Source: an uncultured virus (IMG/VR IMGVR_UViG_3300025617_000900) (taxonomy: Duplodnaviria > Heunggongvirae > Uroviricota > Caudoviricetes). Taken from it: a stretch of 57,495 bases of DNA. Numbering within the stretch: position 1 is the first letter of the stretch; every line of letters starts with the position of its first letter. Of this stretch, positions 13,583 through 54,964 are shown piece by piece. The DNA lies in the IMG/VR virus record IMGVR_UViG_3300025617_000900; one strand, written 5' to 3'. Position numbers and translations under genes: made by a program. Under the pieces are notes generated by a model that searched no databases, was not told where the DNA came from, and saw nothing but the letters and a program-made list of their open reading frames with translations.

Positions 13583-13589
13583 TATTTAT
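13583..13589 (-). promoter_or_regulatory. Putative late promoter (A)TAAATA overlapping the stop codon of the giant ORF
   Basis: ATAAATACAGT on the minus strand upstream of the ATG at 13563. Confidence 0.55.
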
Positions 13590-28500: not shown

Positions 28501-28951
28501 GCCAATAATATTCACGGAAGTTTACAAATTTATCCCAATCAATATTTGGGTTCCATGCATATGTTTCTTGACTGTTTAAACGACTGTGATTTTCTACATT
28601 AGCTCCGAATACATTCAGTTGCCCAATATAATCGTTGTAATCTTTATAAAAAGTTACATTGTCATATAAATCTTTAATAACTGTTGCAGGTTCTAATTGA
28701 TAGTTAGTTCTATTATTGGTGACATCATCAACGTAATTGTCCGCAGCCTTAAATGACTTAGCAGTTTTCCTACCGTAATACCCGTTAATTTTTTCGGCAA
28801 CGCCTGGTTGTATTAATTGATCTAATGTGCCTTGTAAAAACTTTTTGTTAGCTTGTGTTCTAAAAAACTTAGGTAAAAAATCACTTGCCGTGATTTTATT
28901 ATTTTGTCCTGGAACTGGAAGTGCGCTTTCGTTTTGATCATTTTTAGCCAT
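13586..28951 (-). CDS. Giant (5121 aa) virion structural protein, probable baseplate wedge component (gp7-like position)
   Basis: Uninterrupted 15.4-kb ORF directly downstream of the gp6-like gene, with CBM-like, FG-GAP/propeller-like, I..I..PG.GY and FTGDG.T repeats. Confidence 0.75.
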   Translation of the reverse strand: MAKNDQNESALPVPGQNNKITASDFLPKFFRTQANKKFLQGTLDQLIQPGVAEKINGYYGRKTAKSFKAADNYVDDVTNNRTNYQLEPATVIKDLYDNVTFYKDYNDYIGQLNVFGANVENHSRLNSQETYAWNPNIDWDKFVNFREYYWLPNGPISISVQGQSREIVSTYTVTTEDQGDNISYVFNDGLTRNPNLKLYRGQTYRFEIDAPGHPMAIAISRTFTPGTAILTAGTEGLRGDGLFGASLYGNEYDQGDFIILPSGGSVTFEDDENVSTLYPDGIRKLGEEGEEVAIAYIEKGTIEFTIPVNAPDKLYYISKNAVDTSGQIRIYDVEENTFLNVEEEILGKKTYTSSNNVSLSNGMKIKFQGDVTPEIYANSDWYVEGVGDKIKLIRDLDLIIPAAYSDNKQIAFDSDNFDTLPFSDASSYATEKDYVVINRATPDRNAWSRYNRWHHKDVILKSFEFNNLPRNVDELARAKRPIIEFEAGLKLENFGAIAKKDIDLIDTFTTDVFSTIEGKIGYNIDGINLAENMRILFTADTDILVNGKIYQVKFINIGNNRQISLIETEDTMPIDLETVLVTQGVKNAGKSYHYHKGQWLAAQEKTETNQSPMFDVCDVNGNSFNDETYYGSSTFKGTKLFSYAQGDGIDDTELGFPLSYKSIDNSGDITFDFNLLNDTFTYQTDTELLTQKIDSGYLKKYTSLTNFTYENGFSRTPTISKQKVIREYAATTVQTNDFEIDVYENSSSISDLKTVVYVNHKLQLLDDDYIIDKSSSNAIIKFVKDLIADDIIKIKTTSNSIKNNNGYYEFPYNLERNPLNDDVNQFTLGEVIDHVDSMLEDVPGYTGTYLGSSNLRDLGDLDRYGKRFVKHSGPINLPLYHITNKNYNIIKALQYSKKEYSRFKKTFIDVATTLGFDGLTKEHVDKILKEINAGKLKSQPFYFSDMIPFGSSNKIEYTVLDSRVTDYPLSTNFNLSKLSVKSVIVYLNNVQLTYNKDYNFDIPGYISIDAGQTENDLIEIFEYENSDGSFIPPTPTKLGLYPKYYPELTIDDTVLAEEPVSSGPFKIYGEDESTGKRGWFYPVYTTKSAAGLANLSKSYSFVGMNKLFYIPTLDATIAGNDNIEITEYPIGVAFIRGHDGSYIRAYKDFRDELLLEFEKRIFNNIKAEYSTDRLDINEFIGGDFRTNEFTKTEIDNTLLSEFHKWLQNNLNNQTYTENTFYNRNNNWTFNYSSTSSPNNNANPGFWRGVFVRLFDTDRPHSHPWEMLGLTSKPDWWNEVYGPAPYTGDNLVLWKDLEEGRISDPKNTRIDLKYSRPGLTSFIPVNSNGKLLSPLDIGIAENFNIRNATNNFKFGDYSPVENAWRRSAEYPFSVLAALLLNKPAKTMSLGFDISRISKNLTNQWTDIETNKPIVIKDLKLPNTIQSETRTMTSGLVNYIYNLVASDILTVYQDYADDLASITNQIGIKIAGFTSKEKFNLILDSRSPTQNLTQDGIFVPQENYQVFLNTSSPSELAIYSGVIVERAEIGYVLRGYNLEKPYFEYYSPQQGSSKSVVTVGGISEKTVSWNPNTSFISGEVILHNNSYYRVIDSFTSSNTFDTNNIIKLPQLPLTGGRTAEFKKNFKTTKLDRLQYGSKLNSAQEVVDFLLGYSLRQQEIGFRFENVIDGSNTVENWSQSAKEFLFWTTQGWAEKSLISLSPASNLIEFNKDYYIVDNIKDDFYGYNIFKADGLFLDSEFNSVLRDQNSFGIETVGTEEGLYHVSLPLVQKEHVVLIDNTTDFNDTIYNPATGYRQDRIRVNGYRSDNWNGGLNIPGFVYDDAKFTDWTQWKDYIIGDIVKYKQYYYVATSNVSGSQTFNNNLWYRLSEKPESQLMTNFDYRVTQFTDFYDLDSDSFDIDQQRAAQNLIGYQKRQYLSNIINDDVSQFKFYRGAIADKGTMNVFTKLFDALGNTADNLEFYEEWAIQVGRYGAVDDVQQVEYNLQQDKMQESPQAVELVSTLPATNFDKIYRILPNEVFDKPADYDHAPLPTKTIASEYIRTSGYTNENDVDFIVGSLTDLAAVDTNQISLGDTIWITDTDNKNWTVMQLINPNVNVLSLDSDITEIAENGLRLVELTLDKWANELFSVNDYLGIRGAAQYSVNGLYEIDSINLNTVRIRVPLDNDISNFEDEKFTASTLRTIRVDDLSEINNAINQDLYNKQRLWVDTYKTEWAVLENNSVYLNSQAIVNPSEYDSTDQGFSDSVAITKNNNNVFVSAPNDANGKVSVYRRTREQSNLLLDQEIVIDNDDLFTRNDSDFGKSIAVSPDGEYLVVGIPQASDVNTRLAYKTDAVTNESTFDFQPDATYIKNDIVRYRESLWKVNREVLPEIASQPFSTFDTYVNIASSADADSTTLNLLVAGDPGLENNTVNHLLVRAPKDMYLGTSAGDTINLFWNRRSYTYPTLDNYIPFDGLLDTPQNVFADYLSQDHVIVEKIDHVFFVETFISLPLVGSIVTTDTGSAEVAYVGTRRDSAVIYVKDTNGVFDVTGELFINELDFVGFYTEEDTYSTTDAVGGFWFINTSFSYSNNGVYYDTGRGLVYADVKLQGSSRELNPYYNIQNTVGTIGTFVTEKNRASYIEQLSYRGDPSGFDGQDGVERNILSNKWVARVGKTFSDTSTIGDTTEFRLYNLDNRIIDVASAGFSYDILNKQQTIVDIWDGYIDFDLTEFDFSGFAFEPQVGDVIEDVQTPRDGQGGLALTTITTSSAEVVFLKRNFNSVRVYLKVLTGEWLEQSNIGRYQIRRTANTALRGVTDVDRTIGTVSDINNNIILGNQIVGKLLVFENTSDFNIVDNPSILDEEYWFFDETTESGIQRLSNPPYSLNKDYTQIYHIPADKFGTSPALTNEGAVAIYRKLPDGSYRFQNLFVSEYRAPNRYFGSKVSITQTGNYYTLLVGSDSIADIGPDNLRRTHPGAIEIFRHGTKSTDSFKGEYKLTSYQIGDIVIYRDDYYICRKATSNAQNVILDPIYWDKISWKHGKDSNYRGEFDNTYSYRLGSIVSRNNKLWKALTNISIGATEPSDTNDLWESISTNIDYLGYLPNLTSTRFYNEEVFDPIDNLIEFSKSFSISEDSQVLVVTTKQVQTDSTTDTKIAIYRAVGDQFQIDQIISAPDNVTGWADKVAINPAGTQIAISSMLVDTNKINQGVVYVYTQTDGVFVLTQTLTPPNNEESEGFGFGLDFGADNLVVSSLNGDQTIPTTFDVAVYADTEETATTFDNEFTNFRNIKLDKGVVYVYETVNENLIYSEQFVYPLTQTTFGENVYANGNHVYIGMPDQVSNENKGTLLDFRKNANTFAWNVISEGITPVDVDNIRGAFLYNKRENKLVSYIDYIDPVQGKIAGPADQEITFKTSFDPAVYNTGNTSDSSVDPNRAWTDKHTGQVWWNIGTAKFTHAYQGSTTFQKNNWNKLVPGSRIDVYEWVESNYIPSIWDSIADTPSGIVSKISGTSLFGDTRYSTKIIYDEVSKTFSNKYYFWVVNKVTVPVMENRRLSIRDIAALIENPRTQGYPFLSLLSNNKFVLNNFDTFVDNDDLVLNIKYSTGPKKTQNVHSQYKLISDGLKTSKPDPDIERKWFDSLIGFDDNNRIVPDPTITVKNRYGVQNRPRQSMFVNRFEALKQTIERINLKLLETLVVDEYDISALTQLDAAPTEISREYDLTIDTFSELAFVSTNKIVPAILTPVVINGRISRINITDPGRGYKVAPSFKVNGTGSNVDFDIEINNLGQIIDVQLTNTGEGYNSNTTITVRPFTVLVNADETIQDKWALYSWDGKEWYRRKLQSYNVESYWRYTDWFADGYNQFTNINDIIQGSYELPSLQNNIGDIVKIETVGSGGWLLLQKIDDQDSEDYTINYDVIGRQNGTIQFNDTLYDYGKNTVGFDNRSFDSNFYDNTPSIEIRIILETIRDNIFVGDLETEYNQLFIAALRYVMAEQQSVDWMFKTSFVKATHNRESLSKQDITFNNDNLQSYQDFVEEFKPYSTKIREFVSEYNAIDPTNSSISDFDLSPVYNKTSKTIEASNAKIVNGEIVDENLDTTTYPRKHWKDNIGYQITEIKIGDGGSGFTFEPIITLVGGGGTGATAKAYLGYGSITSIKITNPGTGYTTAPTVVISGSQLETGTPARATAVLGNGLVRSPLVKIKFDRTSGTFTFDTLAKTETFTGTGFENRFFLEWPMDLSNTKIKVYVDNILQLRSKYTYENIENTDKSYAREQGKVLFTTPPKLNSVIRIEYVIPLSMLSAEDRIKFAYTPIAGMYGNDLAQLMSGVDYGGVEVRSFDFSSPSGFDSQPWYTDNWDEFDDTFEDEVFTADGSTIAVQLSEPLEDGVVYNLYKNGVRIDDPNYDEGTPTNVYAITNSITGDGTTDVVYVQDLGISLLDGDVFVVRKTTSDGSVIPDLESYDTALTGGDLAYTSARGIAAEEIIVDGDGFVTPTTSSGPEEVVPGQILDTLDIKVYTRDSEGQGVINSQSYIMDSTLTYDLGVIPNSSNAVIVKVADVILPQTDYTIDWSANTVTLDSATVGAELNIVTVSQGTQNLLDFGKLLGDGSTTEFETTVDWEDGASVYASINGVQQTVAAFASETTPKTVIRFEEVVADGAVINYTVFSADEQVNYSQITKDTFTGDGVTNEFNLSNAPLYAIPSEHNVLVKVDNLILNAGYNVKYTIPQNSQREYPFEIFQMPQGSLDVQDVKVFLNGSELSTPLDWRFEIANSNITLSDDIGSPGDTLEMYVITDGDYRINGSTITLDDVPADNSTIEIIQFTNHNLLGIERINYDVVSRTTLIPEDVDYITYNRLTVGEITLRSPAIDAQYVWVAVNGELLSPSVDYYITDDKLKLQLVRRPDADAVIDVIHFTSAASKPKFAYRQFKDMLNRTHFKRLEKSTAKLAQALNYYDLRIELDNAFNLSEPNKSRNLPGVIFIEGERIEYFVKEENTLRQLRRGTLGTGVKDTYDVNTDVFDQNIGKTVPYKDQTLVSNTTADGLTTTFEVSYPVSSINEIEVFVAGTRMRKTPLDVFDYTAALDSPEGDTTIVADFTFDADTNEITLATAPAQDTRVTVVKKVGRAWTDDGVSLSDSENSIARFLRAGTSALPE

Positions 28952-39766: not shown

Positions 39767-39767
39767 T

Positions 39768-40067
39768 TTAGAATCCTAAAGTATTGCGCAGTGCTGTTGG
39801 ATCGGGTAGATAAATTTTTGTTCCTGCTACAAAATCAAATACAGGATCCTTTAGAACGTCCAAGTTTCTCTGTGCAAATACCCACCACAATTCTTTTTTA
39901 CCGTAAGTAATGTGTGCTAATAAATCTGGGCGATATGTATATTCTGATGTTATTTCAAAAAGAATATCTTCTCTATTAATAGGAACAGGACGCGGCGATA
40001 AAACATCTAAGTATCCGTTTTCATTAATAGGCGTTCTTGCGTACTGACTTAAACTGGTGTTTTTCAT
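39768..40067 (-). CDS. Baseplate wedge protein gp53-like (LysM/tail X-like)
   Basis: YRPDLLAH..YG...LWWVFA.RN...DP..DF..G..I.LP pattern. Confidence 0.8.
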   Translation of the reverse strand: MKNTSLSQYARTPINENGYLDVLSPRPVPINREDILFEITSEYTYRPDLLAHITYGKKELWWVFAQRNLDVLKDPVFDFVAGTKIYLPDPTALRNTLGF

Positions 40068-40977: not shown

Positions 40978-41002
40978 AAGTATAACATAACCGGAGATGT
41001 CA

Positions 41003-41851
41003 ATGAGACCTAAAAATTATCTAAACAATAAAGATATATTAAAAGAAATACACAAATCAAAAAATAAGTTCAACAGTTATCTTGCACCTGAATATGCAGA
41101 TTACGACATTATTCTGCCAAGTGTAGATAAAATTAATCGATTAACTGTTGCAGAGGCGAAGCGTAACAAAGCAAAAAAGCTATCATCTGCTGAATACGAG
41201 CGCAGAAAAGGGTTAGGACACAAAGTTAAACAAGCAGAATGCGAAACAAAACCTACAGAAATTACTAAAGAAGAATTAATCTTCCGTGTAATGACGTTTG
41301 ATCATATTCCTGAAGAGCCGGGACGTAAAAAGAACCCAAAGACAGTAGCAGACACTCGAGTTAAACTTCCGTTTCCTCCGTTTCATCATTACAAGTATAA
41401 CGAAGACGGTGAAATTGTTCTTGTTGGAAAAAGCCACTGGGTAGGCGGTATGGACAACGGACATTTTAGTCATCAACACGGTAAAGCAACTGACAAACTT
41501 GCTATGATGTGGTTAAAACTCGTAGATAGATATGCAACTCGTGGCAATGTTCGCGGATATACTTACAATGACGAGATGAAAGGACAAGCAATACTGCAAT
41601 TGGCGCAGATTGGGTTGCAGTTTGACGAATCTAAGTCAGATAATCCATTTGCATACTATACAGCCGCCGTTACTAACAGTTTTGTGCGTGTTATCAACAT
41701 AGAAAAGCGCAATCAAAACATTAGAGACGATATTCTAGAAATGAATGATCTATCGCCGAGCTACACAAGACAAAATCAAGGCGAATGGGAAGCAAGTGTT
41801 AAGCGGAATGAAGATGCTTCACCAACTGCGTATACAAATTCCAAAAAATAG
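41003..41851 (+). CDS. RNA polymerase late sigma factor, T4 gp55-like
   Basis: NYLNNKD N-terminus; YATRGN.RGYTY.DEM...A..FD..KS.NPFAYYT...N.F...I..EK motif. ATG 41003 has GGAG 6 nt upstream (the track starts at 40997). Confidence 0.85.
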   Translation: MRPKNYLNNKDILKEIHKSKNKFNSYLAPEYADYDIILPSVDKINRLTVAEAKRNKAKKLSSAEYERRKGLGHKVKQAECETKPTEITKEELIFRVMTFDHIPEEPGRKKNPKTVADTRVKLPFPPFHHYKYNEDGEIVLVGKSHWVGGMDNGHFSHQHGKATDKLAMMWLKLVDRYATRGNVRGYTYNDEMKGQAILQLAQIGLQFDESKSDNPFAYYTAAVTNSFVRVINIEKRNQNIRDDILEMNDLSPSYTRQNQGEWEASVKRNEDASPTAYTNSKK

Positions 41852-41852
41852 G

Positions 41853-41881
41853 TTGACTACTGTTAATTTTTGTTATATACT
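41853..41881 (+). promoter_or_regulatory. sigma70-type promoter TTGACT-N17-TATACT
   Basis: TTGACT 41853-41858 and TATACT 41876-41881, upstream of the gp47-like gene. Confidence 0.8.
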
Positions 41882-41908
41882 TTAACAAGTATATATGGAG
41901 GATACTCT

Positions 41909-42925
41909 TTGTTTAAAAAAGCTGCGGTGTTTACGGACATCCATTTTGGTCTAAAGGGCAATAGTCGTGTTCACAACGAAGATTGCGAAGAATTTATCGA
42001 TTGGTACATAGAACAAGCACAAGCTGCTGGTTGCGAGACCGGCATTTTCTGCGGAGACTGGCATCACAATCGTAATTCACTAAACTTAACTACTATGGAT
42101 GCAACAATTCGTAGTATGGAAAAGCTAGGCAAAGCATTTGAGAAGTTTTACTTCTTTGATGGCAACCACGATTTGTATTACAAAGACAAACGTGACGTCA
42201 ACTCAACTGCATTTGCTAAACACATTCCGGGTATTACGTTTGTAGACGAGATTCTTATTGAAGATGACGTTGCACTAGTACCTTGGCTAGTAGGCGACGA
42301 GTGGAAGAAGATGAGTGACATCAAAACAAAGTATTTGTTTGGTCACTTTGAACTTCCTAGCTTTTATATGAATGCCCTAGTGCGTATGCCTGATCACGGT
42401 GACTTAAAACCTGAACATTTTAAGCATCAAGACTATGTATTCAGTGGACACTTTCACAAACGTCAGAAGCAAGGTGCTATTCACTACATTGGCAATGCGT
42501 TTCCGCACAATTATGCTGATGTAGGCGATGATGATCGCGGTATGATGATACTTGACAAGGAAAATAACCTAGAACCCGAGTACATCAATTGGCCCAATTG
42601 TCCTAAGTACCGCACAGTTAAGCTAAGTGAACTGATTGACAATGCAGATACTATTATAAAGAGTAAAATGTACTTGCGTGTGACACTTGACTTGCCTATC
42701 AGCTATGAAGAAGCTAGTTTTATTAAAGAAACGTTTATTAATCAATACGGTTGTCGTGAAATTACACTCATTCCGCAAAAACAACTGGAAGAAATTAGTA
42801 CAGAGCTTGATATTGCACAATTTGAAAGTGTAGATCAAATTGTGAGTAACGAAATTGCAGAACTAGACACCAACAACTATGATAAAAGTATGTTGTTGCA
42901 AATTTATAATGGATTAGAATCGTAA
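41909..42925 (+). CDS. Recombination endonuclease subunit, gp47/Mre11/SbcD-like
   Basis: Metallophosphoesterase motifs DIHFG, GDWHH, GNHD, GHFE and SGHFH. Likely TTG start at 41909 with GGAGG RBS 7 nt upstream. Confidence 0.92.
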   Translation: MFKKAAVFTDIHFGLKGNSRVHNEDCEEFIDWYIEQAQAAGCETGIFCGDWHHNRNSLNLTTMDATIRSMEKLGKAFEKFYFFDGNHDLYYKDKRDVNSTAFAKHIPGITFVDEILIEDDVALVPWLVGDEWKKMSDIKTKYLFGHFELPSFYMNALVRMPDHGDLKPEHFKHQDYVFSGHFHKRQKQGAIHYIGNAFPHNYADVGDDDRGMMILDKENNLEPEYINWPNCPKYRTVKLSELIDNADTIIKSKMYLRVTLDLPISYEEASFIKETFINQYGCREITLIPQKQLEEISTELDIAQFESVDQIVSNEIAELDTNNYDKSMLLQIYNGLES

Positions 42926-42926
42926 T

Positions 42927-44696
42927 ATGATTAAGATCAAAGATTTAACAGTCAAAAACTTTATGAGTGTGGGCAATCAGACTCAAGCAGTAGACTTTGA
43001 CCACGAACAGCTAACACTTGTACTAGGTGAGAACCTAGATCAAGGCGGAGACGACAGTGGTTCACGTAACGGTACTGGTAAGACTACTATTATCAACGCA
43101 CTAAGCTATGCTTTGTATGGCAATGCACTTACAAACATTAAAAAGAACAACTTGATTAACAAAACTAATTCAAAAGGAATGTTGGTGACGCTTACTTTTG
43201 AAAAAGATAATAACGAATACCGTATTGAAAGAGGTCGTTCGCCTAATATCTTTAAATTCTACATGAATGATCAAGAAAAACTAGTAGACGAGTCACAAGG
43301 CGACAGTAGACAGACGCAGGACGATGTAAACACACTATTAGGTATGAGTCACGACATGTTTAAACACGTTGTTGCTCTGAATACCTACACAGAACCGTTC
43401 TTGAGCATGCGTGTTAATGATCAAAGACAGATTATTGAACAGTTGTTGGGTATTACTATCCTTTCTGAGAAGGCTGATGCACTTAAAGAACAAGTTCGTC
43501 AAACAAAAGATGCTATTACAGAAGAAACACTAAAGATTAATGCTATTCAAACTGCTAATGAGAAGATTGAAGGCAGTATTGAAGGATTAAAGCGCACTCA
43601 ACGTGCTTGGATTGCTAAGAACAAACAAGACCAAGACAGTTTAGCAAGTGCTATTGAAGAATTAGAGAAGCTGGACATTGAAGCTGAACTAGAGTCGCAT
43701 GAAAAATTAGCAAACTGGACTGAACACAACAATGCTATCCTTGCTCTTAAGAAAGAACTAAGCACACTTGAGCCTGCACTACAACGTGCCGACAAAAGTG
43801 TAACCAAAGCAGAGAAAGACATTGCAGATCTTGAAGATGCAACCTGTTACACATGTGGTCAAGAACTGCATGCAGACAAGAAAGCAGAGATTGCAGAACG
43901 CAAAGGCAAAGAACTTGCTGATGCACTAGTATATCAAACAGAAGTTGCAGGCAAACTTACTGATGTAATGAAAGCACTTGAAGAAATTGGTGACATCAAT
44001 GGTAAGCCTACAACATTTTATGACAGTGCTAAAGAAGCATACGAGCATAGAAGCAATGTAGACAATCTAAAGAAAGCACTTGAAGACAAAAAAGTTGAAA
44101 CTGATCCTTATGCTGCACAGATTACAGAATTAAACGAATCTGCTATTCAGCAAATCGACTGGAACAGTGTTAACGAACTTACAAGTTACAAAGAACATCA
44201 AGAGTTCTTGCTAAAGCTGCTTACGAACAAAGACAGTTTCATTCGCAAGAAGATTATTGACCAGAACCTAGCATATCTAAACAACAGACTTACATATTAT
44301 CTCGACAAACTAGGATTACCGCATCAAGTATTGTTCCAAAACGATTTAAATGTTGAAATTACACAACTAGGTCAGGATCTAGACTTCGATAACTTGAGTC
44401 GAGGAGAGCGCAACAGACTTATCTTAGGATTAAGCTTTGCATTCCGTGATGTTTGGGAAAGCTTGTATCAAAATATCAACTTGTTGTTTATCGATGAGCT
44501 TATTGATAGCGGCATGGACACTGCTGGTGTAGAAAATAGTTTGAGTGTCCTCAAGAAGATGGCTAGAGAGCGTAGCAAGAACATTTATCTTATCTCACAC
44601 AAAGACGAACTGATTGGTCGTGTTAATCATGTGTTGCGAGTTGTAAAGGAAAATGGATTTACAAGCTATGCAAACGATTTAGAGGTTGTAGAATGA
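42927..44696 (+). CDS. Recombination ATPase subunit, gp46/Rad50/SbcC-like
   Basis: KNFMSVG; Walker A NGTGKT; coiled coil with CYTCG zinc hook; signature LSRGE; Walker B LLFIDE; ISH motif. Confidence 0.95.
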   Translation: MIKIKDLTVKNFMSVGNQTQAVDFDHEQLTLVLGENLDQGGDDSGSRNGTGKTTIINALSYALYGNALTNIKKNNLINKTNSKGMLVTLTFEKDNNEYRIERGRSPNIFKFYMNDQEKLVDESQGDSRQTQDDVNTLLGMSHDMFKHVVALNTYTEPFLSMRVNDQRQIIEQLLGITILSEKADALKEQVRQTKDAITEETLKINAIQTANEKIEGSIEGLKRTQRAWIAKNKQDQDSLASAIEELEKLDIEAELESHEKLANWTEHNNAILALKKELSTLEPALQRADKSVTKAEKDIADLEDATCYTCGQELHADKKAEIAERKGKELADALVYQTEVAGKLTDVMKALEEIGDINGKPTTFYDSAKEAYEHRSNVDNLKKALEDKKVETDPYAAQITELNESAIQQIDWNSVNELTSYKEHQEFLLKLLTNKDSFIRKKIIDQNLAYLNNRLTYYLDKLGLPHQVLFQNDLNVEITQLGQDLDFDNLSRGERNRLILGLSFAFRDVWESLYQNINLLFIDELIDSGMDTAGVENSLSVLKKMARERSKNIYLISHKDELIGRVNHVLRVVKENGFTSYANDLEVVE

Positions 44697-44899
44697 TAGA
44701 AGATGACGCACATGATTTGCTAGTAAAAGCATATCTTGCATATTTCGAAGCAAACGAAAAGTTTATAAAAAGAAATAGTGTAAGAACACATCGCGCAGTA
44801 CGAAAGTGCTTGCGCGATATTCGTGCATTAGCAAAAGAACGTGCAGATGAAATACACGTTCATCATAACACAACAAGGCAAACCAGAAAAGACAAATAA
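44693..44899 (+). CDS. Small basic helical protein, weakly Hc1 (histone H1-like) family-like
   Basis: 68 aa, overlaps the gp46 stop (ATGA), GAGG RBS; KF..RN....RAVRK.L.DI..LAKER..EI pattern. Confidence 0.6.
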   Translation: MIEDDAHDLLVKAYLAYFEANEKFIKRNSVRTHRAVRKCLRDIRALAKERADEIHVHHNTTRQTRKDK

Positions 44900-44924
44900 C
44901 AACTTAGGCACTGGTAAGTAACTG

Positions 44925-45374
44925 ATGCAGTGGACTTACCGAGGTGAAACAATTGACACAATACCAGATGAGTATGAAGGATTTGTTTACCTTATCACTA
45001 ACAAGACCACAGGCCAAAAATACGTAGGCAAGAAACTAGCAAAATTTAAAACCACTAAGCCACCTCTAAAAGGCAAAAAAAATAAAAGACGCGGCTACAA
45101 AGAAAGCGACTGGAGAACATACTATGGTAGTTCAGACAGACTAAACGCAGATGTAGCAGCACTAGGCGAAGAACACTTTACAAGAGAAATATTATATCTT
45201 TGTAAAGGCAGAGGCGAAATGTCATATATAGAGGCAAGAGAACAATTTGATCGGCGGGTACTTGAAACAGATGAATACTACAACGGTATCATTAATGTTA
45301 GAGTAGGCGGATCAGACAAACTCAAACAGGCATTGCTAGAACATCACATCCAGGCAAAACAATCCAACACATAA
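44925..45374 (+). CDS. Stand-alone GIY-YIG (Seg-like) nuclease domain protein
   Basis: GFVYLITN..TG.KYVGKK; Y.GSS; FTREIL; conserved E (YIEARE) and YYN; only 149 aa long. Confidence 0.8.
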   Translation: MQWTYRGETIDTIPDEYEGFVYLITNKTTGQKYVGKKLAKFKTTKPPLKGKKNKRRGYKESDWRTYYGSSDRLNADVAALGEEHFTREILYLCKGRGEMSYIEAREQFDRRVLETDEYYNGIINVRVGGSDKLKQALLEHHIQAKQSNT

Positions 45375-45750
45375 GGTTAGCGGGCCAGATCGAAAATACC
45401 GCTGTGGAAAAGGCTAGGGTGATACCTGCACACGTAACATACTGATTGACTACCCAGAGGTAGGAAGCCATCAAACAAATTGGGCTCACTGGTTGGTATA
45501 GATTGATTGTTGGCAGTCGAAAAACACAAACACAGTACATAAAAACTCTTTAGCAATAGGAACGAAGCGAGAGGTAGCTGGAAACAGCGATGTCGACGTA
45601 GGTTGGGAAAGGTCAGAGCCCATTGTACTTTGTGTATAAACAATTACCTACTTCCAATGTCTCGGCTGGTGCAGACTCACATGAAGCGCATTTTGAGATT
45701 AGATGGGACCGTAACTGGTTCCGTCTGACTGAAACAATCTACATGAAACT
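45375..45750 (+). ncRNA. Candidate large structured non-coding RNA (unknown family)
   Basis: Largest gene-free gap in the window and GC-richer than other spacers. Many stems with G-U pairs on the + strand, a GAAA tetraloop (45577-45588) and long-range pairings 45481-87/45616-22 and 45499-505/45735-41. Confidence 0.6.
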
Positions 45751-45754
45751 TATA

Positions 45755-45775
45755 CATTATCACTTTGTGATAATG
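45755..45775. repeat. Perfect 9-bp inverted repeat with 3-nt loop
   Basis: CATTATCAC-TTT-GTGATAATG. Confidence 0.85.
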
Positions 45776-45839
45776 ATTATTCATATATAAATCATTTAAT
45801 CAAAACGAAGTGTAAGTAGTTTGAGCGTTAGCGAAAACT

Positions 45840-45860
45840 TGTATTAACGAAGTTAATACA
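45840..45860. repeat. Perfect 9-bp inverted repeat with C(GAA)G triloop
   Basis: TGTATTAAC-GAA-GTTAATACA. Confidence 0.85.
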
Positions 45861-45877
45861 CTAAGCACTAAAGAATA

Positions 45878-45884
45878 ATAAATA
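45878..45884 (+). promoter_or_regulatory. Putative late promoter ATAAATA
   Basis: Upstream of the AAGGA RBS and the ATG at 45914. Confidence 0.6.
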
Positions 45885-45913
45885 CATTATATTGATACTA
45901 AGGAATACTCGAA

Positions 45914-46192
45914 ATGAAGATCTCTGAATTTGCTGTTGACAAACAGGTAGATGAATTAACTGCTGGTGAAGTAGGAACTGCTGCTGGTAAAGCAACTAGA
46001 GCTGTTGGTTCTGGAATAAAAAACTTTGCTAAGGGTTTTGCAAGTGGTGTTACTGGTAAAGCTGCATCTAGTGATAAAGCTGCACCAGCAAGTCCTCAAC
46101 TCAAATCTATCAAGTCGAGTATTGCAGCACTTAATCCTAAACAACAGGCAGCACTAAGAAAACAACTTGCTAAGAAAGCAGGAGTAGCATAA
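45914..46192 (+). CDS. Small Ala/Lys-rich protein, possible internal head protein
   Basis: 92 aa; MKISEF...VDE propeptide-like N-terminus; late promoter and RBS upstream. Confidence 0.65.
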   Translation: MKISEFAVDKQVDELTAGEVGTAAGKATRAVGSGIKNFAKGFASGVTGKAASSDKAAPASPQLKSIKSSIAALNPKQQAALRKQLAKKAGVA

Positions 46193-48474
46193 TGAAACGC
46201 ACACTAATTACTGAATCGTGGAATGATCCTCGTCTTACACTTCTCGAGACAACAACTATTATCCCGTTTGTATCTAGTATTGAAAAATATATTACTGAAG
46301 CACAACTTACACCAGATCAAATCAGTCAACTATTTACTGATGTAGAAAAGGGTGCTACTGCTGCCGGCGGCAATAGAACTATGATCGGCAAAGGCACAGA
46401 CGCTGCTAAGTTTATCAATACAAAAATGAAAGAGCTTGGTCAAGCTGTTAAAAAGTCTGGACCTGTTCAAAACGCAGATGCTAAATTTGCAGAACTAAAA
46501 ACTAAAATAGGTTCTAAAGATTCTAAAGTTGTTAGTGCAATACAAGGTGTTAGTGATTGGGCAAAAGAAAATCCTGGCAAAGCAAGTATTGCTGTTGCCG
46601 TACTAACTGTTGCTGCGTCGATGGCTGCCGGACCAATGGCAGGCGCTATTGCAGGTTTTATATCTCGAGCAAGTAAAGATTTACTACAAGGCAAAGACCT
46701 TTCTAGTGCAGTTGGTAATTCACTTAAAACAGCAGCAGTCGGTGCTATTGTCGGTGCAATTGCAGATGGTATTGACTTTGGTACTCCGGATGTTGAAGGT
46801 GGTGTTAACACAGTATCAGGAGATGTGGATACTAGTCAACTACAAGATAAACTTGCAAAAGAGCTAGGCGACAATGCTAGCGATGCAAATCAATCTGTTG
46901 CAAGTGCATTTGCAGATATGGATGTATCACAATTTAAGATGAAGTATGCTGAAGAAATGTATTTGGCTCAACTTGAAAAGTTTGGCGGTGAAGCAAGTCG
47001 TAGCATGATGATGAAGATGGCCGAAAACATTGACATTCAAGGTACATATCCAGATGATTTTACTGCTAGTTTTGAAGGAAGTTTTGTTAGAGGGAATATT
47101 TTCTTAACGCCAGATGAAGCTAGAGAACTTAGTGCTGCTGGATTTGAAGGCATGGACATAATGGGCAGTGAAGCAACAGAATGGATTAAAGCAAATGTTG
47201 AAGGCGCAGACGAACAAATTCAAGCAGGAATTGATGCAAGTGCGCGAGCAGACGCAGAACTAAAAGCAAAATACGATGCAATGAGTGCCGAAGAGCAACG
47301 TGCATTTGACCAAGAGAGAGCTGCAAAATATGGCGACTTTATGGATGTCGAACCTCCGGGAACTCCTAAGTACAAAGAAAGTATCGATTTTAAAAATATT
47401 CAAATTGAAACTATTATTGAATGGTGTGACCAATCTCCTGCTGTTATACTAACAGAAGGCCCGATGGATGCAATTAAAAAAGGTGCAAGTGCTGTAGGCG
47501 GAGCAGTTAAGAAAGGTGCAGCAGCCGTAGGCGCTAAAGCAGCAAAGGTTGGCAAGAATATGACAACTAAAGTTACTGCTGACAAATTAAATAAAGCCTG
47601 GGTCAAAGCTGGAAAGCCTACTGACAGTGATAAAATTGCAAACATTCTTAGACAGCAAGGTGTAAGTGATCAAGTACTAGCACCTGTATACAAACAAATG
47701 GGTGCAAAGCTTCCTGCTGCTCCTGCAAAAGATACACAAGCAAGTAAGCCAGGATCAACAGATAAACCACAAGCAGGTAAGCCAGGTGCAACAGGCGGAC
47801 AGGCAGCTGGCGCAGCAGCGCCGATGGACTTTAAAGCTATTCAACAAGCTGTAGCTAAAATGAGTTCACAGGATGCAAAAGAATTAGTTACGCATATTGA
47901 CTCGCTCAGCGGCAAAAAAGCAGCAGCACAGCCTCAAACAGCCCCTGCACAAGGTGCAACTACACAACAGCAACCTGCACAAGGACAACAGCCTGCACAA
48001 GGACAACAGCCTGCACAAGGACAACAGCCTGCACAAGGACAACAGCCTGCACAAGGTGCAGCGCCTGGTAAACAGCAACCTGCTGCACAGAATCCTAAAA
48101 ATGCCGCAGCTGGTGATACTTATGAAAAAGCAAAAGGTGATATTCGTAAAGTACAAAGTGGACAAAAGCCTATTCCACCTAAAGCCGCAGCAGACATTCA
48201 GGGTGCAATTGCTAAACTAGCTAAGGGTGATAAAGAAAGTGGAGTATTTGCTGCACAGAAAATTATGAATCTTGCTAAAGCAGGAGTTGATGTCAGCAAA
48301 CAACAGCAAGCATGGGTTGCTAATTCTAAAGCAGCTGAACGGTTCTTAACACAGAGTGTTTACTTTGCAATTACTAAAATGTTGCGTGAGCATAATTTGT
48401 CTTGGAGTAATTTAGGTATAAGAGTGCATTTGTTAGAAGGTACTAACAAAATGTTTGGAATAAGTTACATTTAA
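46192..48474 (+). CDS. Large Ala/Lys/Gln-rich protein, possible internal head/ejection protein
   Basis: 760 aa; GGAG RBS; hydrophobic Gly/Ala segment (IAVAVLTVAASMAAGPMAGAIAGFI); QQPAQG repeats. Confidence 0.7.
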   Translation: MKRTLITESWNDPRLTLLETTTIIPFVSSIEKYITEAQLTPDQISQLFTDVEKGATAAGGNRTMIGKGTDAAKFINTKMKELGQAVKKSGPVQNADAKFAELKTKIGSKDSKVVSAIQGVSDWAKENPGKASIAVAVLTVAASMAAGPMAGAIAGFISRASKDLLQGKDLSSAVGNSLKTAAVGAIVGAIADGIDFGTPDVEGGVNTVSGDVDTSQLQDKLAKELGDNASDANQSVASAFADMDVSQFKMKYAEEMYLAQLEKFGGEASRSMMMKMAENIDIQGTYPDDFTASFEGSFVRGNIFLTPDEARELSAAGFEGMDIMGSEATEWIKANVEGADEQIQAGIDASARADAELKAKYDAMSAEEQRAFDQERAAKYGDFMDVEPPGTPKYKESIDFKNIQIETIIEWCDQSPAVILTEGPMDAIKKGASAVGGAVKKGAAAVGAKAAKVGKNMTTKVTADKLNKAWVKAGKPTDSDKIANILRQQGVSDQVLAPVYKQMGAKLPAAPAKDTQASKPGSTDKPQAGKPGATGGQAAGAAAPMDFKAIQQAVAKMSSQDAKELVTHIDSLSGKKAAAQPQTAPAQGATTQQQPAQGQQPAQGQQPAQGQQPAQGQQPAQGAAPGKQQPAAQNPKNAAAGDTYEKAKGDIRKVQSGQKPIPPKAAADIQGAIAKLAKGDKESGVFAAQKIMNLAKAGVDVSKQQQAWVANSKAAERFLTQSVYFAITKMLREHNLSWSNLGIRVHLLEGTNKMFGISYI
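47968..48057 (+). repeat. 18-bp tandem repeat x5 (CAACAGCCTGCACAAGGA) encoding QQPAQG
   Basis: Three identical central units plus two units with synonymous variants. Confidence 0.95.
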
Positions 48475-48677
48475 AAGAATGGAAGACCACTTTTCTTAGT
48501 GGTCTCTAAGTTTTCTTTTACTATATCACCGATAAGCATTCTATCTTCGTGAGATAGGTTATAACCTTCGTCTATAGTAACACCGCCACGCATATACCAA
48601 CAAAGTTTTAAGATTTCACTCTTAATTTCCTTTTGTTCGTTTTCCATATGCTTAACTTCTTCTAGGATCTCAGCCAC
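48471..48677 (-). CDS. gp51-like hub/tail assembly chaperone C-terminal part, probably expressed via -1 frameshift from the upstream gene
   Basis: L.WYMRGG.T..E...LS.EDR..I pattern; the frame stays open back to the slippery site at 48701-48707; no well-spaced RBS. Confidence 0.7.
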   Translation of the reverse strand: MAEILEEVKHMENEQKEIKSEILKLCWYMRGGVTIDEGYNLSHEDRMLIGDIVKENLETTKKSGLPFF

Positions 48678-48707
48678 GCTCCAAGCTAAGATCCTTATCC
48701 GAAAAAA
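48664..48707 (-). promoter_or_regulatory. Programmed -1 ribosomal frameshift signal
   Basis: In-frame heptamer T TTT TTC (48707-48701), 5-nt spacer, 11-bp stem AGGATCTTAGC/GCTGAGATCCT with a 10-nt loop. Confidence 0.75.
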
Positions 48708-54705: not shown

Positions 54706-54708
54706 ATA
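54701..54708 (+). promoter_or_regulatory. Late promoter TATAAATA, 4 nt before the ATG (leaderless)
   Basis: TATAAATA-CAAT-ATG, overlapping the portal stop codon. Confidence 0.65.
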
Positions 54709-54712
54709 CAAT

Positions 54713-54961
54713 ATGATACTTAGAGAATTATTTTATCACGATCCAGAAACTGTTGACTCTGTAGAAGATAAACGCTACGAGGCAGACTATGATGACTCGC
54801 CTATGAAAAAAGACGATACTCGTAAAACACGACTTACTCTAAGTCAAATCAATCGAATCCGCAAAGCATCTGAGCTACATACAGAAGAAAAGCGTAAAGA
54901 ACAAGAGTTCGTAAAGCAAATGTATGGTATAGCAGCAAACGCAGAAACAGGCGGAGTTTAA
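54713..54961 (+). CDS. Small head-module protein
   Basis: 82 aa; MILRELF N-terminus; DTRKTRLTL.QINRIRK...MYG; directly follows the portal gene. Confidence 0.75.
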   Translation: MILRELFYHDPETVDSVEDKRYEADYDDSPMKKDDTRKTRLTLSQINRIRKASELHTEEKRKEQEFVKQMYGIAANAETGGV

Positions 54962-54964
54962 TTA

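What the first reader, a model, noticed from the sequence alone, without database searches (positions are those of the whole stretch)
44915..45750. Minimal GIY-YIG nuclease followed immediately by a ~370-nt pseudoknotted candidate ncRNA
Seen: the only large gene-free gap in a densely packed window starts at the GIY-YIG stop and is GC-richer than all other spacers. Local stems on the + strand: TAGCGG/CCGCTG (45378-83/45399-404), TAGG/CCTG (45415-18/45425-28), CTACC-CAGA-GGTAG (45450-63), CTCT/AGAG (45546-49/45570-73), GCTG-GAAA-CAGC (45577-88), GTAGGT/ACCTAC (45598-603/45646-51) and a 12-bp stem with three G-U pairs (45699-710/45717-28). Long-range pairs TGGGCTC/GAGCCCA (45481-87/45616-22) and TAGATTG/CAATCTA (45499-505/45735-41) cross each other and the GTAGGT stem, forming pseudoknots. 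ACATGAA is repeated at 45679 and 45741. The G-U pairs and GNRA loop indicate RNA and the + strand. I do not recognise it as tRNA, tmRNA, RNase P or a group I/II intron. Known: homing GIY-YIG enzymes usually carry a C-terminal DNA-binding region, which this 149-aa protein has little room for, and IscB/TnpB use adjacent ncRNAs for targeting. Inference: a co-transcribed nuclease plus RNA unit, which could be an RNA-guided or RNA-scaffolded nuclease, a new large ribozyme/scaffold RNA, or a replication primer RNA.
Basis: partly seen in the sequence, partly recalled or inferred. Interest (0 to 1): 0.85.

Follow-up and report, generated by a model that had tools for sequence, protein, structure and literature searches.

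The report
New structured RNA beside phage nuclease
Just after a small homing-type nuclease gene, this marine giant phage encodes a roughly 370-base RNA whose folded shape is conserved in hundreds of related phages and matches no catalogued RNA family, so it looks like a new functional RNA of unknown job.

Summary
The gap 45375-45913 is real, the largest in the window, and its first 376 nt are GC-rich (0.449 vs 0.370). It is a + strand structured RNA. On 43 diverse homologues my 61-pair model is 95.0% paired (33-40% when slid) and 30 pairs show compensatory changes. His two long-range pseudoknots do not; the supported pseudoknot is 45524-39/45624-35 crossing 45598-603/45646-51. No Rfam 15 family, tRNA or tmRNA matches. 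No conserved reading frame exists. A covarying terminator hairpin ends the RNA.

The upstream gene is a SegE-type GIY-YIG nuclease. It precedes the RNA in 69 of 71 loci found through the RNA. The two are separable, though. The RNA occurs without it in small podovirus-like contigs. The nuclease's closest cultured relatives (64.6% and 48.5% identical) have no RNA. Spacing ranges from 0 to about 330 nt.

Best reading: an independent phage RNA gene with a Seg-type homing endonuclease parked beside it, as SegB sits among T4 tRNA genes. An RNA-guided nuclease is unlikely.

Unexplained: two 7-mers (ACATGAA) are identical in 130 of 132 homologues across nine variants.

The parts
44693..44899 (+). 68-aa basic ORF, first gene of the accessory block orf68 / GIY-YIG / RNA; possible Hc1-like nucleic-acid-binding protein (lead only)
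   Evidence: ORF. No Pfam hit at E 0.01 or better. Nearest ESM Atlas cluster scores 0.93, with PF07432 Hc1 on 18% of members. Present upstream of the nuclease in most loci. Absent together with nuclease and RNA in L277.
44925..45374 (+). 149-aa SegE-type GIY-YIG nuclease gene with no recognisable DNA-binding domain
   Evidence: Pfam PF19835, E 3.3e-35, profile 1-123 of 123. 597 of 600 matched stretches in viral contigs encode relatives. tblastn matches in 820 cultured-phage records. Stand-alone short homologues in Melnitz and S-SRM01.
45353..45374 (+). Conserved 22-nt leader (GGCAAAACAATCCAACACATAA) just before the RNA; here it supplies the last codons and the stop of the nuclease ORF
   Evidence: The same stretch precedes the RNA where it is non-coding: after ORF2 in L091, L095, L138 and L148, and in variant form in L098, L110, L119, L123, L139 and L141.
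45375..45750 (+). Structured non-coding RNA: 5' domain 45375-45519, conserved 3' core 45520-45750
   Evidence: Conserved at 73-90% identity in relatives. 95.0% of cells paired, 30 of 61 pairs compensatory, 0 of 500 shuffles reach the observed values for percent paired, pairs and cells with changes on both sides, or covariation score (17 of 500 do for further pair types). No Rfam family. No conserved frame.
45380..45434 (+). 5' hairpins: 45380-83/45399-402; 45403-06/45431-34 enclosing 45413-18/45425-29
   Evidence: helices 1-3: 100%, 100% and 79.5% paired. Compensatory pairs include UA/AU at 45405-45432 and five of five in helix 3.
45439..45499 (+). Long-range helix 45439-45/45493-99 closing variable arm V1 (45446-92; in the window it includes hairpin 45450-54/45459-63)
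   Evidence: helix 4: 97.3% paired, 4 of 7 pairs compensatory; helix 5: 92.0%. V1 has at least three alternative forms.
45501..45518 (+). Hairpin 45501-05/45514-18 with conserved loop ATTGTTGG
   Evidence: helix 6: 96.7% paired, 3 of 5 pairs compensatory. A possible loop-loop contact with 45551-55 is 93.0% paired with little covariation.
45524..45539 (+). 5' strand of the pseudoknot helix; pairs with 45624-35 (proximal 45535-39/45624-28, distal 45524-30/45629-35 with a 4-nt bulge)
   Evidence: Proximal 5 bp are 100% paired with 3 compensatory pairs (helix 8). Both halves are replaced by other complementary sequences in the podovirus type and in L289/L300. The distal part is poorly aligned (74.5%).
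45546..45573 (+). Hairpin 45546-49/45570-73 with a conserved 20-nt loop containing AGGAACGA
   Evidence: helix 9: 100% paired, 3 of 4 pairs compensatory. The stem is ATATGT/ACATAT in L205.
45577..45588 (+). Variable arm V2 (GCTG-GAAA-CAGC here); other homologues carry different hairpins or inserts here
   Evidence: Alignments. The RNA match in G002 is split into two pieces by an insert here. Several longer RNA regions were seen.
45598..45651 (+). Helix 45598-603/45646-51, which crosses the 45524-39/45624-35 helix to form the pseudoknot and encloses the near-invariant strand 45604-23 (TGGGAAAGGTCAGAGCCCAT)
   Evidence: helix 10: 99.6% paired, 1 compensatory pair; a further UA to CG change in L205. 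Invariant columns listed.
45675..45685 (+). Repeat R1 (ACTCACATGAA)
   Evidence: Its 7-mer is identical to that of R2 in 130 of 132 distinct homologues, across nine 7-mer variants.
45702..45725 (+). Hairpin 45702-10/45717-25
   Evidence: helix 11: 97.9% paired, 2 compensatory pairs, many G-U/A-U alternations.
45726..45730 (+). TGACT, a possible second pseudoknot partner of GGTCA 45611-15 (unproven)
   Evidence: 99.1% paired but nearly invariant, so covariation cannot test it (helix 3).
45737..45747 (+). Repeat R2 (ATCTACATGAA) at the 3' end of the RNA
45755..45785 (+). Intrinsic-terminator-like hairpin (stem-loop 45755-75) and T-rich tail: likely 3' end of the transcript
   Evidence: Found by the consensus scan. 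The stem covaries in relatives, for example 45757-45773 UA 47 / AU 25.

Best explanation
Window 45375-45750 is the gene for a stand-alone, highly structured non-coding RNA of about 370 nt. It has a variable 5' domain and a conserved 3' core of about 230 nt built around a pseudoknot and long invariant single strands. The RNA belongs to a family carried by uncultured marine jumbo myoviruses and, more rarely, by small podovirus-like phages.

In this window it is transcribed at the end of the gp55-gp47-gp46-orf68-nuclease block, probably read through from the nuclease gene. It ends at the hairpin 45755-75.

The GIY-YIG gene upstream is a free-standing Seg-type homing endonuclease that has settled next to this very conserved RNA gene. 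It would promote the RNA gene's inheritance through DNA breaks and gene conversion. This is the relation that T4 SegB has to the tRNA gene cluster.

The RNA itself most likely acts in trans, as a ribonucleoprotein scaffold, a decoy or a ribozyme, on a partner that its two identical 7-nt motifs recognise by base pairing.

Shown: the structure, the strand, the family, its distribution, and the separability of nuclease and RNA. Inferred: homing, trans action, and the role of the motifs.
For: Structure and strand.
- 61-pair model, 95.0% of 2367 cells paired against 33-40% in six slid controls; 30 pairs and 247 cells changed on both sides; 0 of 500 shuffles reach the observed values for four of the five measures (17 of 500 for further pair types).
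- Columns dominated by G-U fix the + strand.
- An independent mutual-information scan on 102 sequences recovers the same helices.

Not coding.
- Stops in all + frames.
- 525 of 646 gap runs are not multiples of 3, and 101 of 101 relatives differ from the window by a frame-breaking indel inside the 88-aa minus-strand ORF.

Discrete gene.
- Terminator-like hairpin that covaries.
- A TTGACA-17 nt-TATACT stretch lies between nuclease and RNA in L119 (sequence, read by eye).
- One copy per large contig in 5 of 5 records.

Family and range.
- 105 distinct full sequences were collected.
- None in 50,697 cultured-phage records.
- One chance match in genome contigs, a collection of one genome per prokaryote species.

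Separability.
- The RNA occurs without the nuclease in L107/L204 and L114/L205, beside terminase genes. L206-L208 and L210, L217, L219, L220 share that RNA subtype.
- Nuclease homologues occur without the RNA in Melnitz and S-SRM01.
- Variable spacing, with an extra ORF in some loci.
- A relative (L277) lacks the whole block.

Mosaic alleles of single helices, and contig ends: 28 of 80 contigs end within 563 nt after the nuclease stop and 0 of 80 within 563 nt before its start. This fits frequent recombination and a sequence shared between co-occurring genomes.

Precedent.
- SegB is a GIY-YIG homing endonuclease inside the T4 tRNA cluster (PMC2330249, abstract in the listing).
- segB homologues co-localise with tRNA genes, and SegB amplifies them against tRNA-cleaving defence (PMC13096335, abstract and section 10).

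Weak support: contigs from four RNA libraries of three studies cover the nuclease gene and the RNA, and bridge their junction at 45285-45576, 45300-45489 and 45359-45567. The tool warns that this does not prove transcription.
Against: - Within the myovirus lineage the nuclease gene precedes the RNA in 69 of 71 loci. That is tighter than expected for a casual neighbour and could equally mean a functional pair or simple common descent.
- No nuclease-free allele of the RNA was found in that lineage, so homing is not demonstrated.
- The nuclease has no DNA-binding domain, which is unusual for a site-specific homing enzyme.
- The function of the RNA is not shown by any result here, and no partner for the 7-mers was found.
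- Transcription is not proven.
- Single-sequence folding energy is ordinary.
Confidence: 0.6

Rival explanations
1. Nuclease and RNA work as one ribonucleoprotein. The minimal GIY-YIG protein, which lacks a DNA-binding domain, uses the RNA as scaffold or guide to find its DNA or RNA target.
For: Adjacent and co-oriented in 69 of 71 loci found through the RNA. The protein is only 149 aa, and the SegE domain fills residues 3-123. No + strand promoter-like site lies between them in the window. RNA-library contigs bridge the junction (weak). The two concerted 7-mers could be short targeting seeds.
Against: The RNA occurs without any GIY-YIG gene in the podovirus-like loci that could be tested, and these keep the concerted 7-mers. 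Equally short homologues of the nuclease stand alone elsewhere: Melnitz at 64.6% identity followed by a 148-nt gap, and S-SRM01 at 143 aa. Spacing runs from 0 to about 330 nt, with an intervening ORF or a promoter-like stretch. There is no variable single-stranded segment of guide length. L284 has the nuclease followed by a different non-coding stretch.
Confidence: 0.12
2. The RNA is a ribozyme: a self-cleaving or self-processing RNA, or a degenerate or unusual relative of group I introns that has lost its exon context.
For: Size, pseudoknot, invariant unpaired strands and variable peripheral arms that tolerate large inserts are what large ribozymes look like. A GIY-YIG gene next to an RNA core recalls T4 td / I-TevI. 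A-rich joiners flank the pseudoknot helix. The two identical 7-mers could be two reaction sites read by one guide.
Against: No Intron_gpI or other ribozyme hit even at E up to 10. In the same mode the 3' core of the T4 td intron scores 40.3 bits, E 2.5e-08. The helix order does not fit P3-P7-P3'-P8-P7': 20 conserved nt separate the two crossing strands and there is no P8. No interrupted gene exists and a terminator follows. The nuclease gene is outside the RNA, not in a loop.
Confidence: 0.12
3. The RNA is a cis-acting element: a 3' untranslated structure that stabilises or processes the nuclease mRNA, or a sensor that controls the terminator at 45755-75 and so read-through into the downstream genes.
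For: It sits between an ORF and a terminator, on the same strand as the downstream genes. The R2 motif lies 7 nt before the terminator hairpin.
Against: About 370 nt with a pseudoknot is far larger than known stabilisers. The same RNA sits in a different gene context in podovirus-like contigs. The 3' core is far more conserved than either flank. No riboswitch family matches.
Confidence: 0.1
4. The conservation is at the DNA level: a replication origin, packaging site or recombination site, not an RNA.
For: Many contigs end inside it. In the small phages it lies near a contig end and before terminase genes.
Against: Pairs are kept through G-U, which would be C-A on the other strand, and by compensatory changes in helices up to 90 nt apart. 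That points to a folded single strand of + polarity. Contig ends are scattered from 24 to 517 nt after the nuclease stop rather than at one base.
Confidence: 0.04

Closest known systems
T4 SegB homing endonuclease within the tRNA gene cluster (and segB-tRNA co-localisation in myoviruses)
   Same: A free-standing GIY-YIG Seg-type gene lies directly beside genes for highly conserved structured RNAs in a large myovirus. The homologues are patchy and mobile. Sources: PMC2330249, abstract seen in the listing; PMC13096335, abstract and section 10 read.
   Different: The RNA here is not a tRNA but an RNA of about 370 nt with no known family. The nuclease matches the SegE, not the SegB, Pfam model and has no C-terminal domain. 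Cleavage and homing are untested.
Mobile group I intron carrying a GIY-YIG gene (T4 td intron / I-TevI)
   Same: A GIY-YIG gene is associated with a pseudoknotted RNA core that has variable peripheral arms (for the T4 annotation).
   Different: No exons. The nuclease gene is outside the RNA. There is no RF00028 match, although the control finds the td core. The helix topology differs. A terminator follows.
HEARO / IscB omega-RNA and TnpB guide RNAs
   Same: A large structured RNA is encoded next to a small nuclease gene of a mobile element. This resemblance is recalled from memory; only the listing of PMC13565253 was seen.
   Different: The nuclease fold differs (GIY-YIG). There is no guide-length variable segment. 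RNA and nuclease each occur alone. No Rfam match.
GOLLD and ROOL, large orphan RNAs often found in phages
   Same: A large, ornate, phage-borne RNA of unknown function with strong covariation. The abstract of bioRxiv 10.1101/2024.12.08.627333 was seen in the listing; the rest is recalled.
   Different: No sequence or structure match to their Rfam models. It is smaller, found in marine jumbo phages, and sits next to a homing endonuclease rather than tRNAs.
T-box leader RNAs (tRNA-sensing)
   Same: Each 7-mer can be read as a codon followed by an invariant A, as in a T-box specifier. This is my own reading; the T-box features are recalled.
   Different: No T-box Rfam hit. No T-box sequence or antiterminator was recognised. 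There are two copies instead of one, in a phage context. tRNA binding is wholly untested.

Membership tests
Group I intron (Rfam RF00028) | Match to the family covariance model | tested here: not met
   No hit at gathering score nor at E up to 10 on 44800-46000; none in 11 related loci at gathering. Control: the T4 td intron is missed at gathering but found in E-value mode at 40.3 bits, E 2.5e-08.
Group I intron (Rfam RF00028) | Interrupts a gene; exons join into one product | tested here: not met
   Stops in all + frames. The sequence after the RNA is a covarying terminator hairpin, not a conserved frame.
Group I intron (Rfam RF00028) | P3/P7 pseudoknot with P7 5' strand directly followed by P3 3' strand, then P8, then P7 3' strand | tested here: not met
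   The two crossing helices are separated by a 20-nt invariant strand, and no hairpin lies between 45636 and 45646.
IscB/TnpB-type RNA-guided nuclease with omega-RNA | RuvC (and HNH) nuclease of the IscB/TnpB family | tested here: not met
   The only Pfam match is SegE_GIY-YIG.
IscB/TnpB-type RNA-guided nuclease with omega-RNA | Variable guide segment of about 15 nt or more at one end of a conserved scaffold | tested here: not met
   The variable parts are hairpin arms V1 and V2 and a short linker. The only concerted variable element is 7 nt.
IscB/TnpB-type RNA-guided nuclease with omega-RNA | Nuclease and RNA always together | tested here: not met
   69 of 71 loci have both, but L107 and L114 have the RNA alone. 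Melnitz and S-SRM01 have the nuclease alone.
Seg-type free-standing GIY-YIG homing endonuclease | GIY-YIG catalytic domain of the Seg type | tested here: met
   PF19835, E 3.3e-35, full profile length.
Seg-type free-standing GIY-YIG homing endonuclease | Own gene between conserved genes, not inside an intron or intein; patchy distribution at different loci | tested here: met
   It lies between orf68 and the RNA. Homologues sit next to a ribonucleotide reductase gene in Melnitz and next to endolysin genes in S-SRM01. The block is absent in L277.
Seg-type free-standing GIY-YIG homing endonuclease | C-terminal DNA-binding domain | tested here: not met
   Only 26 residues follow the catalytic domain and no second Pfam match exists. 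In L091, L095, L098 and L138 a separate ORF of about 100 aa starts where the nuclease match ends; two of the four ORF2 sequences scanned gave sub-threshold PF12843 hits.
Seg-type free-standing GIY-YIG homing endonuclease | Site-specific cleavage of the nuclease-free allele and gene conversion | not testable with these tools
   Needs an enzyme assay and mixed infections.
tRNA / tmRNA | Cloverleaf or tmRNA architecture found by ARAGORN | tested here: not met
   0 genes in the 57,495-nt window.
Any Rfam 15 family (including RNase P, GOLLD, ROOL, HEARO, riboswitches, small ribozymes) | Score at or above the family's gathering threshold | tested here: not met
   0 matches in the window and in 11 related loci. 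In E-value mode there were only two chance-level hits, E 1.8 and 9.7, to unrelated families.
T-box leader | Specifier codon plus following purine; T-box sequence pairing with the tRNA 3' end; antiterminator | tested here: inconclusive
   A codon-plus-A reading fits all nine 7-mer variants and the L204 form TCATCAA seen. No RF00230 hit, and no conserved UGGN bulge was recognised in the alignment.

The most novel reading that the evidence does not exclude
The RNA is a phage-encoded tRNA-reading RNA. Its two identical 7-mers are codon-like specifiers (AUG in most; AUA, GUG, AGG, AGA or AUC in others). Each is followed by an invariant A and preceded by a pyrimidine, which makes it the complement of an anticodon loop with U33 and a purine at 37. 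The conserved pseudoknot core would then hold, sense, shield or chemically act on two copies of one chosen tRNA, for instance to protect it from host anticodon nucleases. The neighbouring Seg-type endonuclease would spread or amplify the gene, as SegB does for tRNA genes. More broadly, this would be a new class of large trans-acting phage RNA, possibly a ribozyme.
Probability: 0.08. Interest if true: 0.92.

Novelty: new variant of a known kind. Interest (0 to 1): 0.72.

Why it matters
Large, intricately folded RNAs with invariant unpaired strands are rare. Those whose function is known are mostly ribozymes or cores of ribonucleoproteins, and orphans such as HEARO later proved to be guide RNAs (this point is recalled, not taken from a call).

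This family matches no Rfam 15 model, and I could not check whether it is in print. It is carried by uncultured marine jumbo phages and shared with unrelated small phages, so it is probably an accessory function that moves between phages of one habitat.

The pairing with a Seg-type endonuclease extends the recently described link between such nucleases and structured RNA genes beyond tRNAs.

The concerted 7-mers give a concrete, testable handle on the RNA's partner.

Tried and rejected
- Single-sequence folding: z = -1.01 (+) and +1.17 (-); not informative.
- tRNA/tmRNA scan: none.
- Rfam: nothing real. The gathering mode also misses the T4 td and nrdB introns, so only the E-value mode counts against a group I identity.
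- Further candidate pairings: 45604-08/45660-64 and 45677-80/45695-98 have no support. 45611-15/45726-30 and the loop-loop pairing 45508-12/45551-55 are compatible but nearly invariant.
- Coding on the minus strand: stop-free stretches are long (median 79 aa; 88-aa ORF in the window). This was rejected because 101 of 101 relatives have frame-breaking indels there.
- Host homologue: one match in genome contigs (L202), a chance match in a GC-rich contig.
- Metagenome scan for the podovirus-type core: 12 stretches, of which only 4 are homologous.
- Cultured phages: no RNA match.
- A cis partner for the 7-mers: none at a fixed place in the RNA. No convincing complementary site in the window.
- RNA-library contigs: they leave 46008-46400 uncovered.
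- Literature: the paper search for structured RNA / phage / homing endonuclease / marine / covariation and for the core 11-mer as text found no description of this RNA. The candidate list of PMC10690425 could not be checked, because its two large supplement files were not searchable, so the RNA may be among its unnamed candidates.
- No fold of the nuclease and no complex prediction were run.
Full report
**Setting**

The window is part of a large, distantly T4-like myovirus.
- PHROGs and Pfam name a gp55-like late sigma factor (40997-41851), a gp47-like phosphoesterase (41870-42925), a gp46/Rad50-like ATPase (42927-44696), baseplate, portal and prohead protease genes.
- The best cultured relatives of gp46 are Pseudomonas jumbo phages of the PA5oct type, at 51% identity.
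- Related contigs of 169 and 236 kb are rated 46% and 66% complete, so these are jumbo phages.
- The four RNA libraries that were laid are labelled marine.
- After gp46 come a 68-aa basic ORF (44693-44899), the 149-aa GIY-YIG ORF (44925-45374), the gap, and then a 92-aa and a 760-aa ORF, all on the + strand.

The gap 45375-45913 is the largest in the window at 539 nt. Its first 376 nt have GC 0.449, against 0.155-0.375 for the other spacers and 0.370 overall. All three + frames are closed. The ORF is a SegE-type GIY-YIG nuclease (PF19835, E 3.3e-35).

Folding the single sequence gives nothing unusual (z = -1.01), so chance stems could not be excluded from the window alone.

**Comparative evidence**

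A protein-anchored scan found that 597 of 600 matched stretches in viral contigs encode relatives of the nuclease; 80 were kept. In these the non-coding stretch is conserved at 73-90% identity as far as about 45750-45860. All 54 loci with at least 470 nt downstream align through it.

From all loci I extracted 105 distinct full-length RNA sequences.

A mutual-information scan and a search for stacked, mostly canonical column pairs on 102 of them (three longer than 500 nt were left out) recovered a consistent set of helices.

On a MAFFT alignment of 43 sequences chosen to be under about 88.5% identical, plus two podovirus-type members (A1), the tool count gave:
- 61 pairs, with 95.0% of 2367 cells paired, against 33-40% when the partners are slid by 1-3 columns.
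- 30 pairs and 247 cells changed on both sides.
- 0 of 500 shuffles reaching the observed values for percent paired, pairs and cells with changes on both sides, and covariation score; 17 of 500 do for further pair types.

Several columns are dominated by G-U, which fixes the + strand.

**The fold (window coordinates)**

- Hairpin 45380-83/45399-402.
- Helix 45403-06/45431-34 enclosing hairpin 45413-18/45425-29.
- Long-range helix 45439-45/45493-99 closing a variable arm V1.
- Hairpin 45501-05/45514-18.
- An A-rich joiner.
- The 5' strand of a long-range helix (45524-30 and 45535-39).
- Another A-rich joiner.
- Hairpin 45546-49/45570-73, whose 20-nt loop is conserved.
- Variable arm V2 (45577-88).
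- The conserved GATGTCGAC.
- Helix 45598-603/45646-51.

That last helix encloses the near-invariant strand TGGGAAAGGTCAGAGCCCAT and the 3' strand (45624-35) of the long-range helix, so the two helices cross and form a pseudoknot.

After that come repeat R1, a variable linker, hairpin 45702-10/45717-25, TGACTGAAAC, repeat R2, and a terminator-like hairpin at 45755-75 whose stem also covaries.

Divergent members strengthen the helices.
- In the podovirus type the pseudoknot helix reads CACC..GTGCA/TGCAC-GGTG and the 45546 stem reads ATATGT/ACATAT.
- In L289 and L300 the pseudoknot helix is ATGCTAC/GTAGCAT, and the whole 5' domain is replaced by other hairpins.

So the conserved unit is the 3' core, and the 5' domain, V1 and V2 are interchangeable periphery.

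Most of his local stems are right. His TAGG/CCTG register, the variable GCTG/CAGC arm and the outer 3 bp of the 12-bp stem are not supported.

His two long-range pairings fail. TGGGCTC/GAGCCCA is 73.7% paired with no compensatory change, and its 5' half is missing in many homologues. TAGATTG/CAATCTA is 86.6% paired with none, and clashes with a covarying hairpin.

**Not coding**

The minus strand has long stop-free runs (an 88-aa ORF here; median 79 aa). However, 525 of 646 gap runs are not multiples of three, and 101 of 101 relatives carry a frame-breaking indel against the window inside that ORF.

**Known families**

- Rfam 15 gives nothing at gathering score in the window or in 11 related loci, and only two chance-level hits in E-value mode.
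- ARAGORN finds no tRNA or tmRNA.
- As a control I scanned the T4 td / nrdB region. Gathering mode misses both introns, so that mode alone is weak evidence. E-value mode finds the td core behind I-TevI at 40.3 bits, E 2.5e-08, whereas the same mode finds no intron signal here.
- The helix order also does not fit a group I core, there are no exons, and a terminator follows.

I therefore do not file it as a group I intron, RNase P RNA, HEARO, GOLLD, ROOL or any riboswitch.

**Where the RNA occurs**

- No cultured phage among 50,697 records has it.
- The one match in genome contigs (one genome per prokaryote species) is a chance match.
- Each of five large or fairly complete contigs has one copy.

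**Relation to the nuclease**

Among 80 loci found through the RNA, 71 have at least 900 nt upstream, and 69 of these carry the nuclease gene. The two exceptions (L107 = L204, L114 = L205) are small podovirus-like contigs where the RNA lies upstream of terminase genes. Three more viral loci and four metagenome loci carry this RNA subtype, but I did not test them for the nuclease.

Anchoring on gp46 instead (80 loci) gave:
- 40 loci with nuclease and RNA by the 21-mer.
- 27 loci with too little downstream sequence.
- 13 loci flagged for a closer look.

nhmmer then found the RNA in 7 of the 13 (L248, L250, L289, L292, L295, L298, L300). Four of the rest end at or just after the nuclease gene. L284 has the nuclease followed by a different non-coding stretch of about 600 nt. 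L277 has neither orf68, nuclease nor RNA, but hemE-like genes.

The distance from nuclease stop to RNA start is 0 in the window type. It is about 90-130 nt in L119, L139 and L141, where L119 has TTGACA-17 nt-TATACT. It is about 270-330 nt in L091, L095, L098, L110, L123, L138 and L148, which carry an extra ORF of 87-104 aa there. In L091, L095, L098 and L138 its ATG sits at nucleotide 419 of the nuclease ORF, in the +1 frame; its family is unclear (sub-threshold PF12843 hits for two of the four scanned).

The 22 nt before the RNA stay conserved whether or not they are coding. The window's last nuclease codons therefore belong to the RNA's leader.

The closest cultured homologues of the nuclease are Melnitz phages (64.6% identity, annotated ORF of 441 nt) and Synechococcus phage S-SRM01 (48.5%, 143 aa). 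Both are equally short, sit at other loci, and are followed by gaps of only 148 and 87 nt with no RNA match.

Nuclease and RNA are thus separable modules, tightly linked only within one phage lineage.

**Signs of recombination**

Individual helices and arms occur as a few discrete alleles in many combinations, with the two strands of each helix always matching.

Of the 80 nuclease-anchored contigs, 28 end within 563 nt after the nuclease stop and none within 563 nt before its start. The ends are scattered, not at one base. This fits assembly breaks at a sequence shared between co-occurring genomes, not a physical genome end.

**The concerted repeats**

R1 (ACTCACATGAA, 45675-85) and R2 (ATCTACATGAA, 45737-47) share a 7-mer that is identical within a sequence in 130 of 132 distinct homologues. 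Nine different 7-mers occur among them: ACATGAA 99, ACATAAT 10, ACATGAT 6, ACGTGAA 4, ACAGAAA 3, ACAGGAA 3, ACATGAG 2, ACATAAA 2 and GTATGAA 1, plus two discordant sequences. The script took the NCTC-preceded 7-mer nearest to R2 as R1. L204 has TCATCAA in both copies.

The stretches before the repeats also resemble each other (TTCC..GTCT.G.CTG..): compare 45652-85 with 45719-47.

No complementary partner sits at a fixed place in the RNA or stands out in the window. Identity rather than complementarity means that both copies probably meet the same outside partner.

Read as positions 3-5 plus 6, the variants are AUG, AUA, GUG, AGG, AGA or AUC, followed by an A that never changes. That is the complement of an anticodon loop. 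This is my own untested reading and is the basis of the novel case.

**Expression**

Contigs from four RNA libraries of three studies, at 85% likeness or more, cover the nuclease gene and the RNA and bridge their junction. The tool warns that contigs in an RNA library do not prove transcription, so this is weak support only.

**Most likely mechanism**

The RNA is an independent gene for a trans-acting structured RNA. The GIY-YIG gene is a Seg-type homing endonuclease lodged beside it.

The precedent is T4 SegB in the tRNA cluster (PMC2330249, abstract). A more recent report finds that segB homologues co-localise with tRNA genes and amplify them to escape tRNA-cleaving defence (PMC13096335, abstract and section 10).

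What the RNA does is not shown. Its size, pseudoknot and invariant strands argue for a ribonucleoprotein core or a ribozyme, and its transfer between unrelated phages argues for an accessory, perhaps anti-defence, role. The ribonucleoprotein model with the nuclease remains possible (about 0.12) but is disfavoured by the separability data.

**Novelty**

At the level of the system (a Seg-type nuclease next to a structured RNA gene) this is a new variant of a known arrangement. The RNA family itself matches nothing in Rfam 15, and I found no description in two literature searches. The unnamed candidate lists of PMC10690425 could not be searched.

Noticed in passing
window 45806-45860: Downstream of the terminator there are small conserved hairpins: AGTTTGAGCGTTAGCGAAAACT (45818-39) and GTATTAACGAAGTTAATAC (45841-59). 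The second has a CGAAG loop whose stem changes while the ACGAAGT centre stays in relatives. Similar ACGAAGT repeats follow the RNA in the podovirus-type loci.
   Followed up: no
window 45786-45792: TATAAAT lies just after the terminator and about 120 nt before the 92-aa ORF. It resembles the T4 late promoter box (consensus recalled from memory), and the window encodes a gp55-like late sigma factor at 40997-41851.
   Followed up: no
L091, L095, L098, L110, L123, L138, L148 (between nuclease gene and RNA): An extra ORF of 87-104 aa lies between nuclease gene and RNA. In L091, L095, L098 and L138 it starts at nucleotide 419 of the nuclease ORF in the +1 frame. Two of the four sequences scanned (L138, L098) give sub-threshold matches to PF12843 (E 0.0057 and 0.0016). 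It may be a detached partner domain of the nuclease.
   Followed up: partly
L284:3790-4400: This relative has the nuclease followed by a different GC-rich non-coding stretch of about 600 nt. It shares only a 5' hairpin (CCAGCCGAGGTAATGCTCGTGGCCGGTGG) with the L295-type RNA, and has no nhmmer or Rfam match. It may be a second RNA family at the same site.
   Followed up: partly
L277:3094-4859: In a relative with 85% identical gp46, the orf68 / nuclease / RNA block is replaced by two ORFs (326 and 261 aa). By eye they look like haem-pathway enzymes (hemE-like); this was not tested.
   Followed up: no
window 13586-28951 (- strand): A single ORF of 5121 aa lies among tail and baseplate genes. It was too long for the family scan and was not examined.
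   Followed up: no
window 44693-44899: The 68-aa ORF has no Pfam hit, but its nearest ESM Atlas cluster carries PF07432 (histone-like Hc1) on 18% of members. It is a small basic protein encoded next to a large RNA.
   Followed up: partly
window 46192-48474: The 760-aa ORF contains a run of PAQGQQ repeats near residues 590-620 and has no Pfam or PHROG match.
   Followed up: no
window 39767-40066, 48475-48694, 54706-54964: Three further spacers of 220-300 nt with GC 0.357-0.375. They were not examined for RNAs beyond the negative Rfam scan of the window.
   Followed up: no
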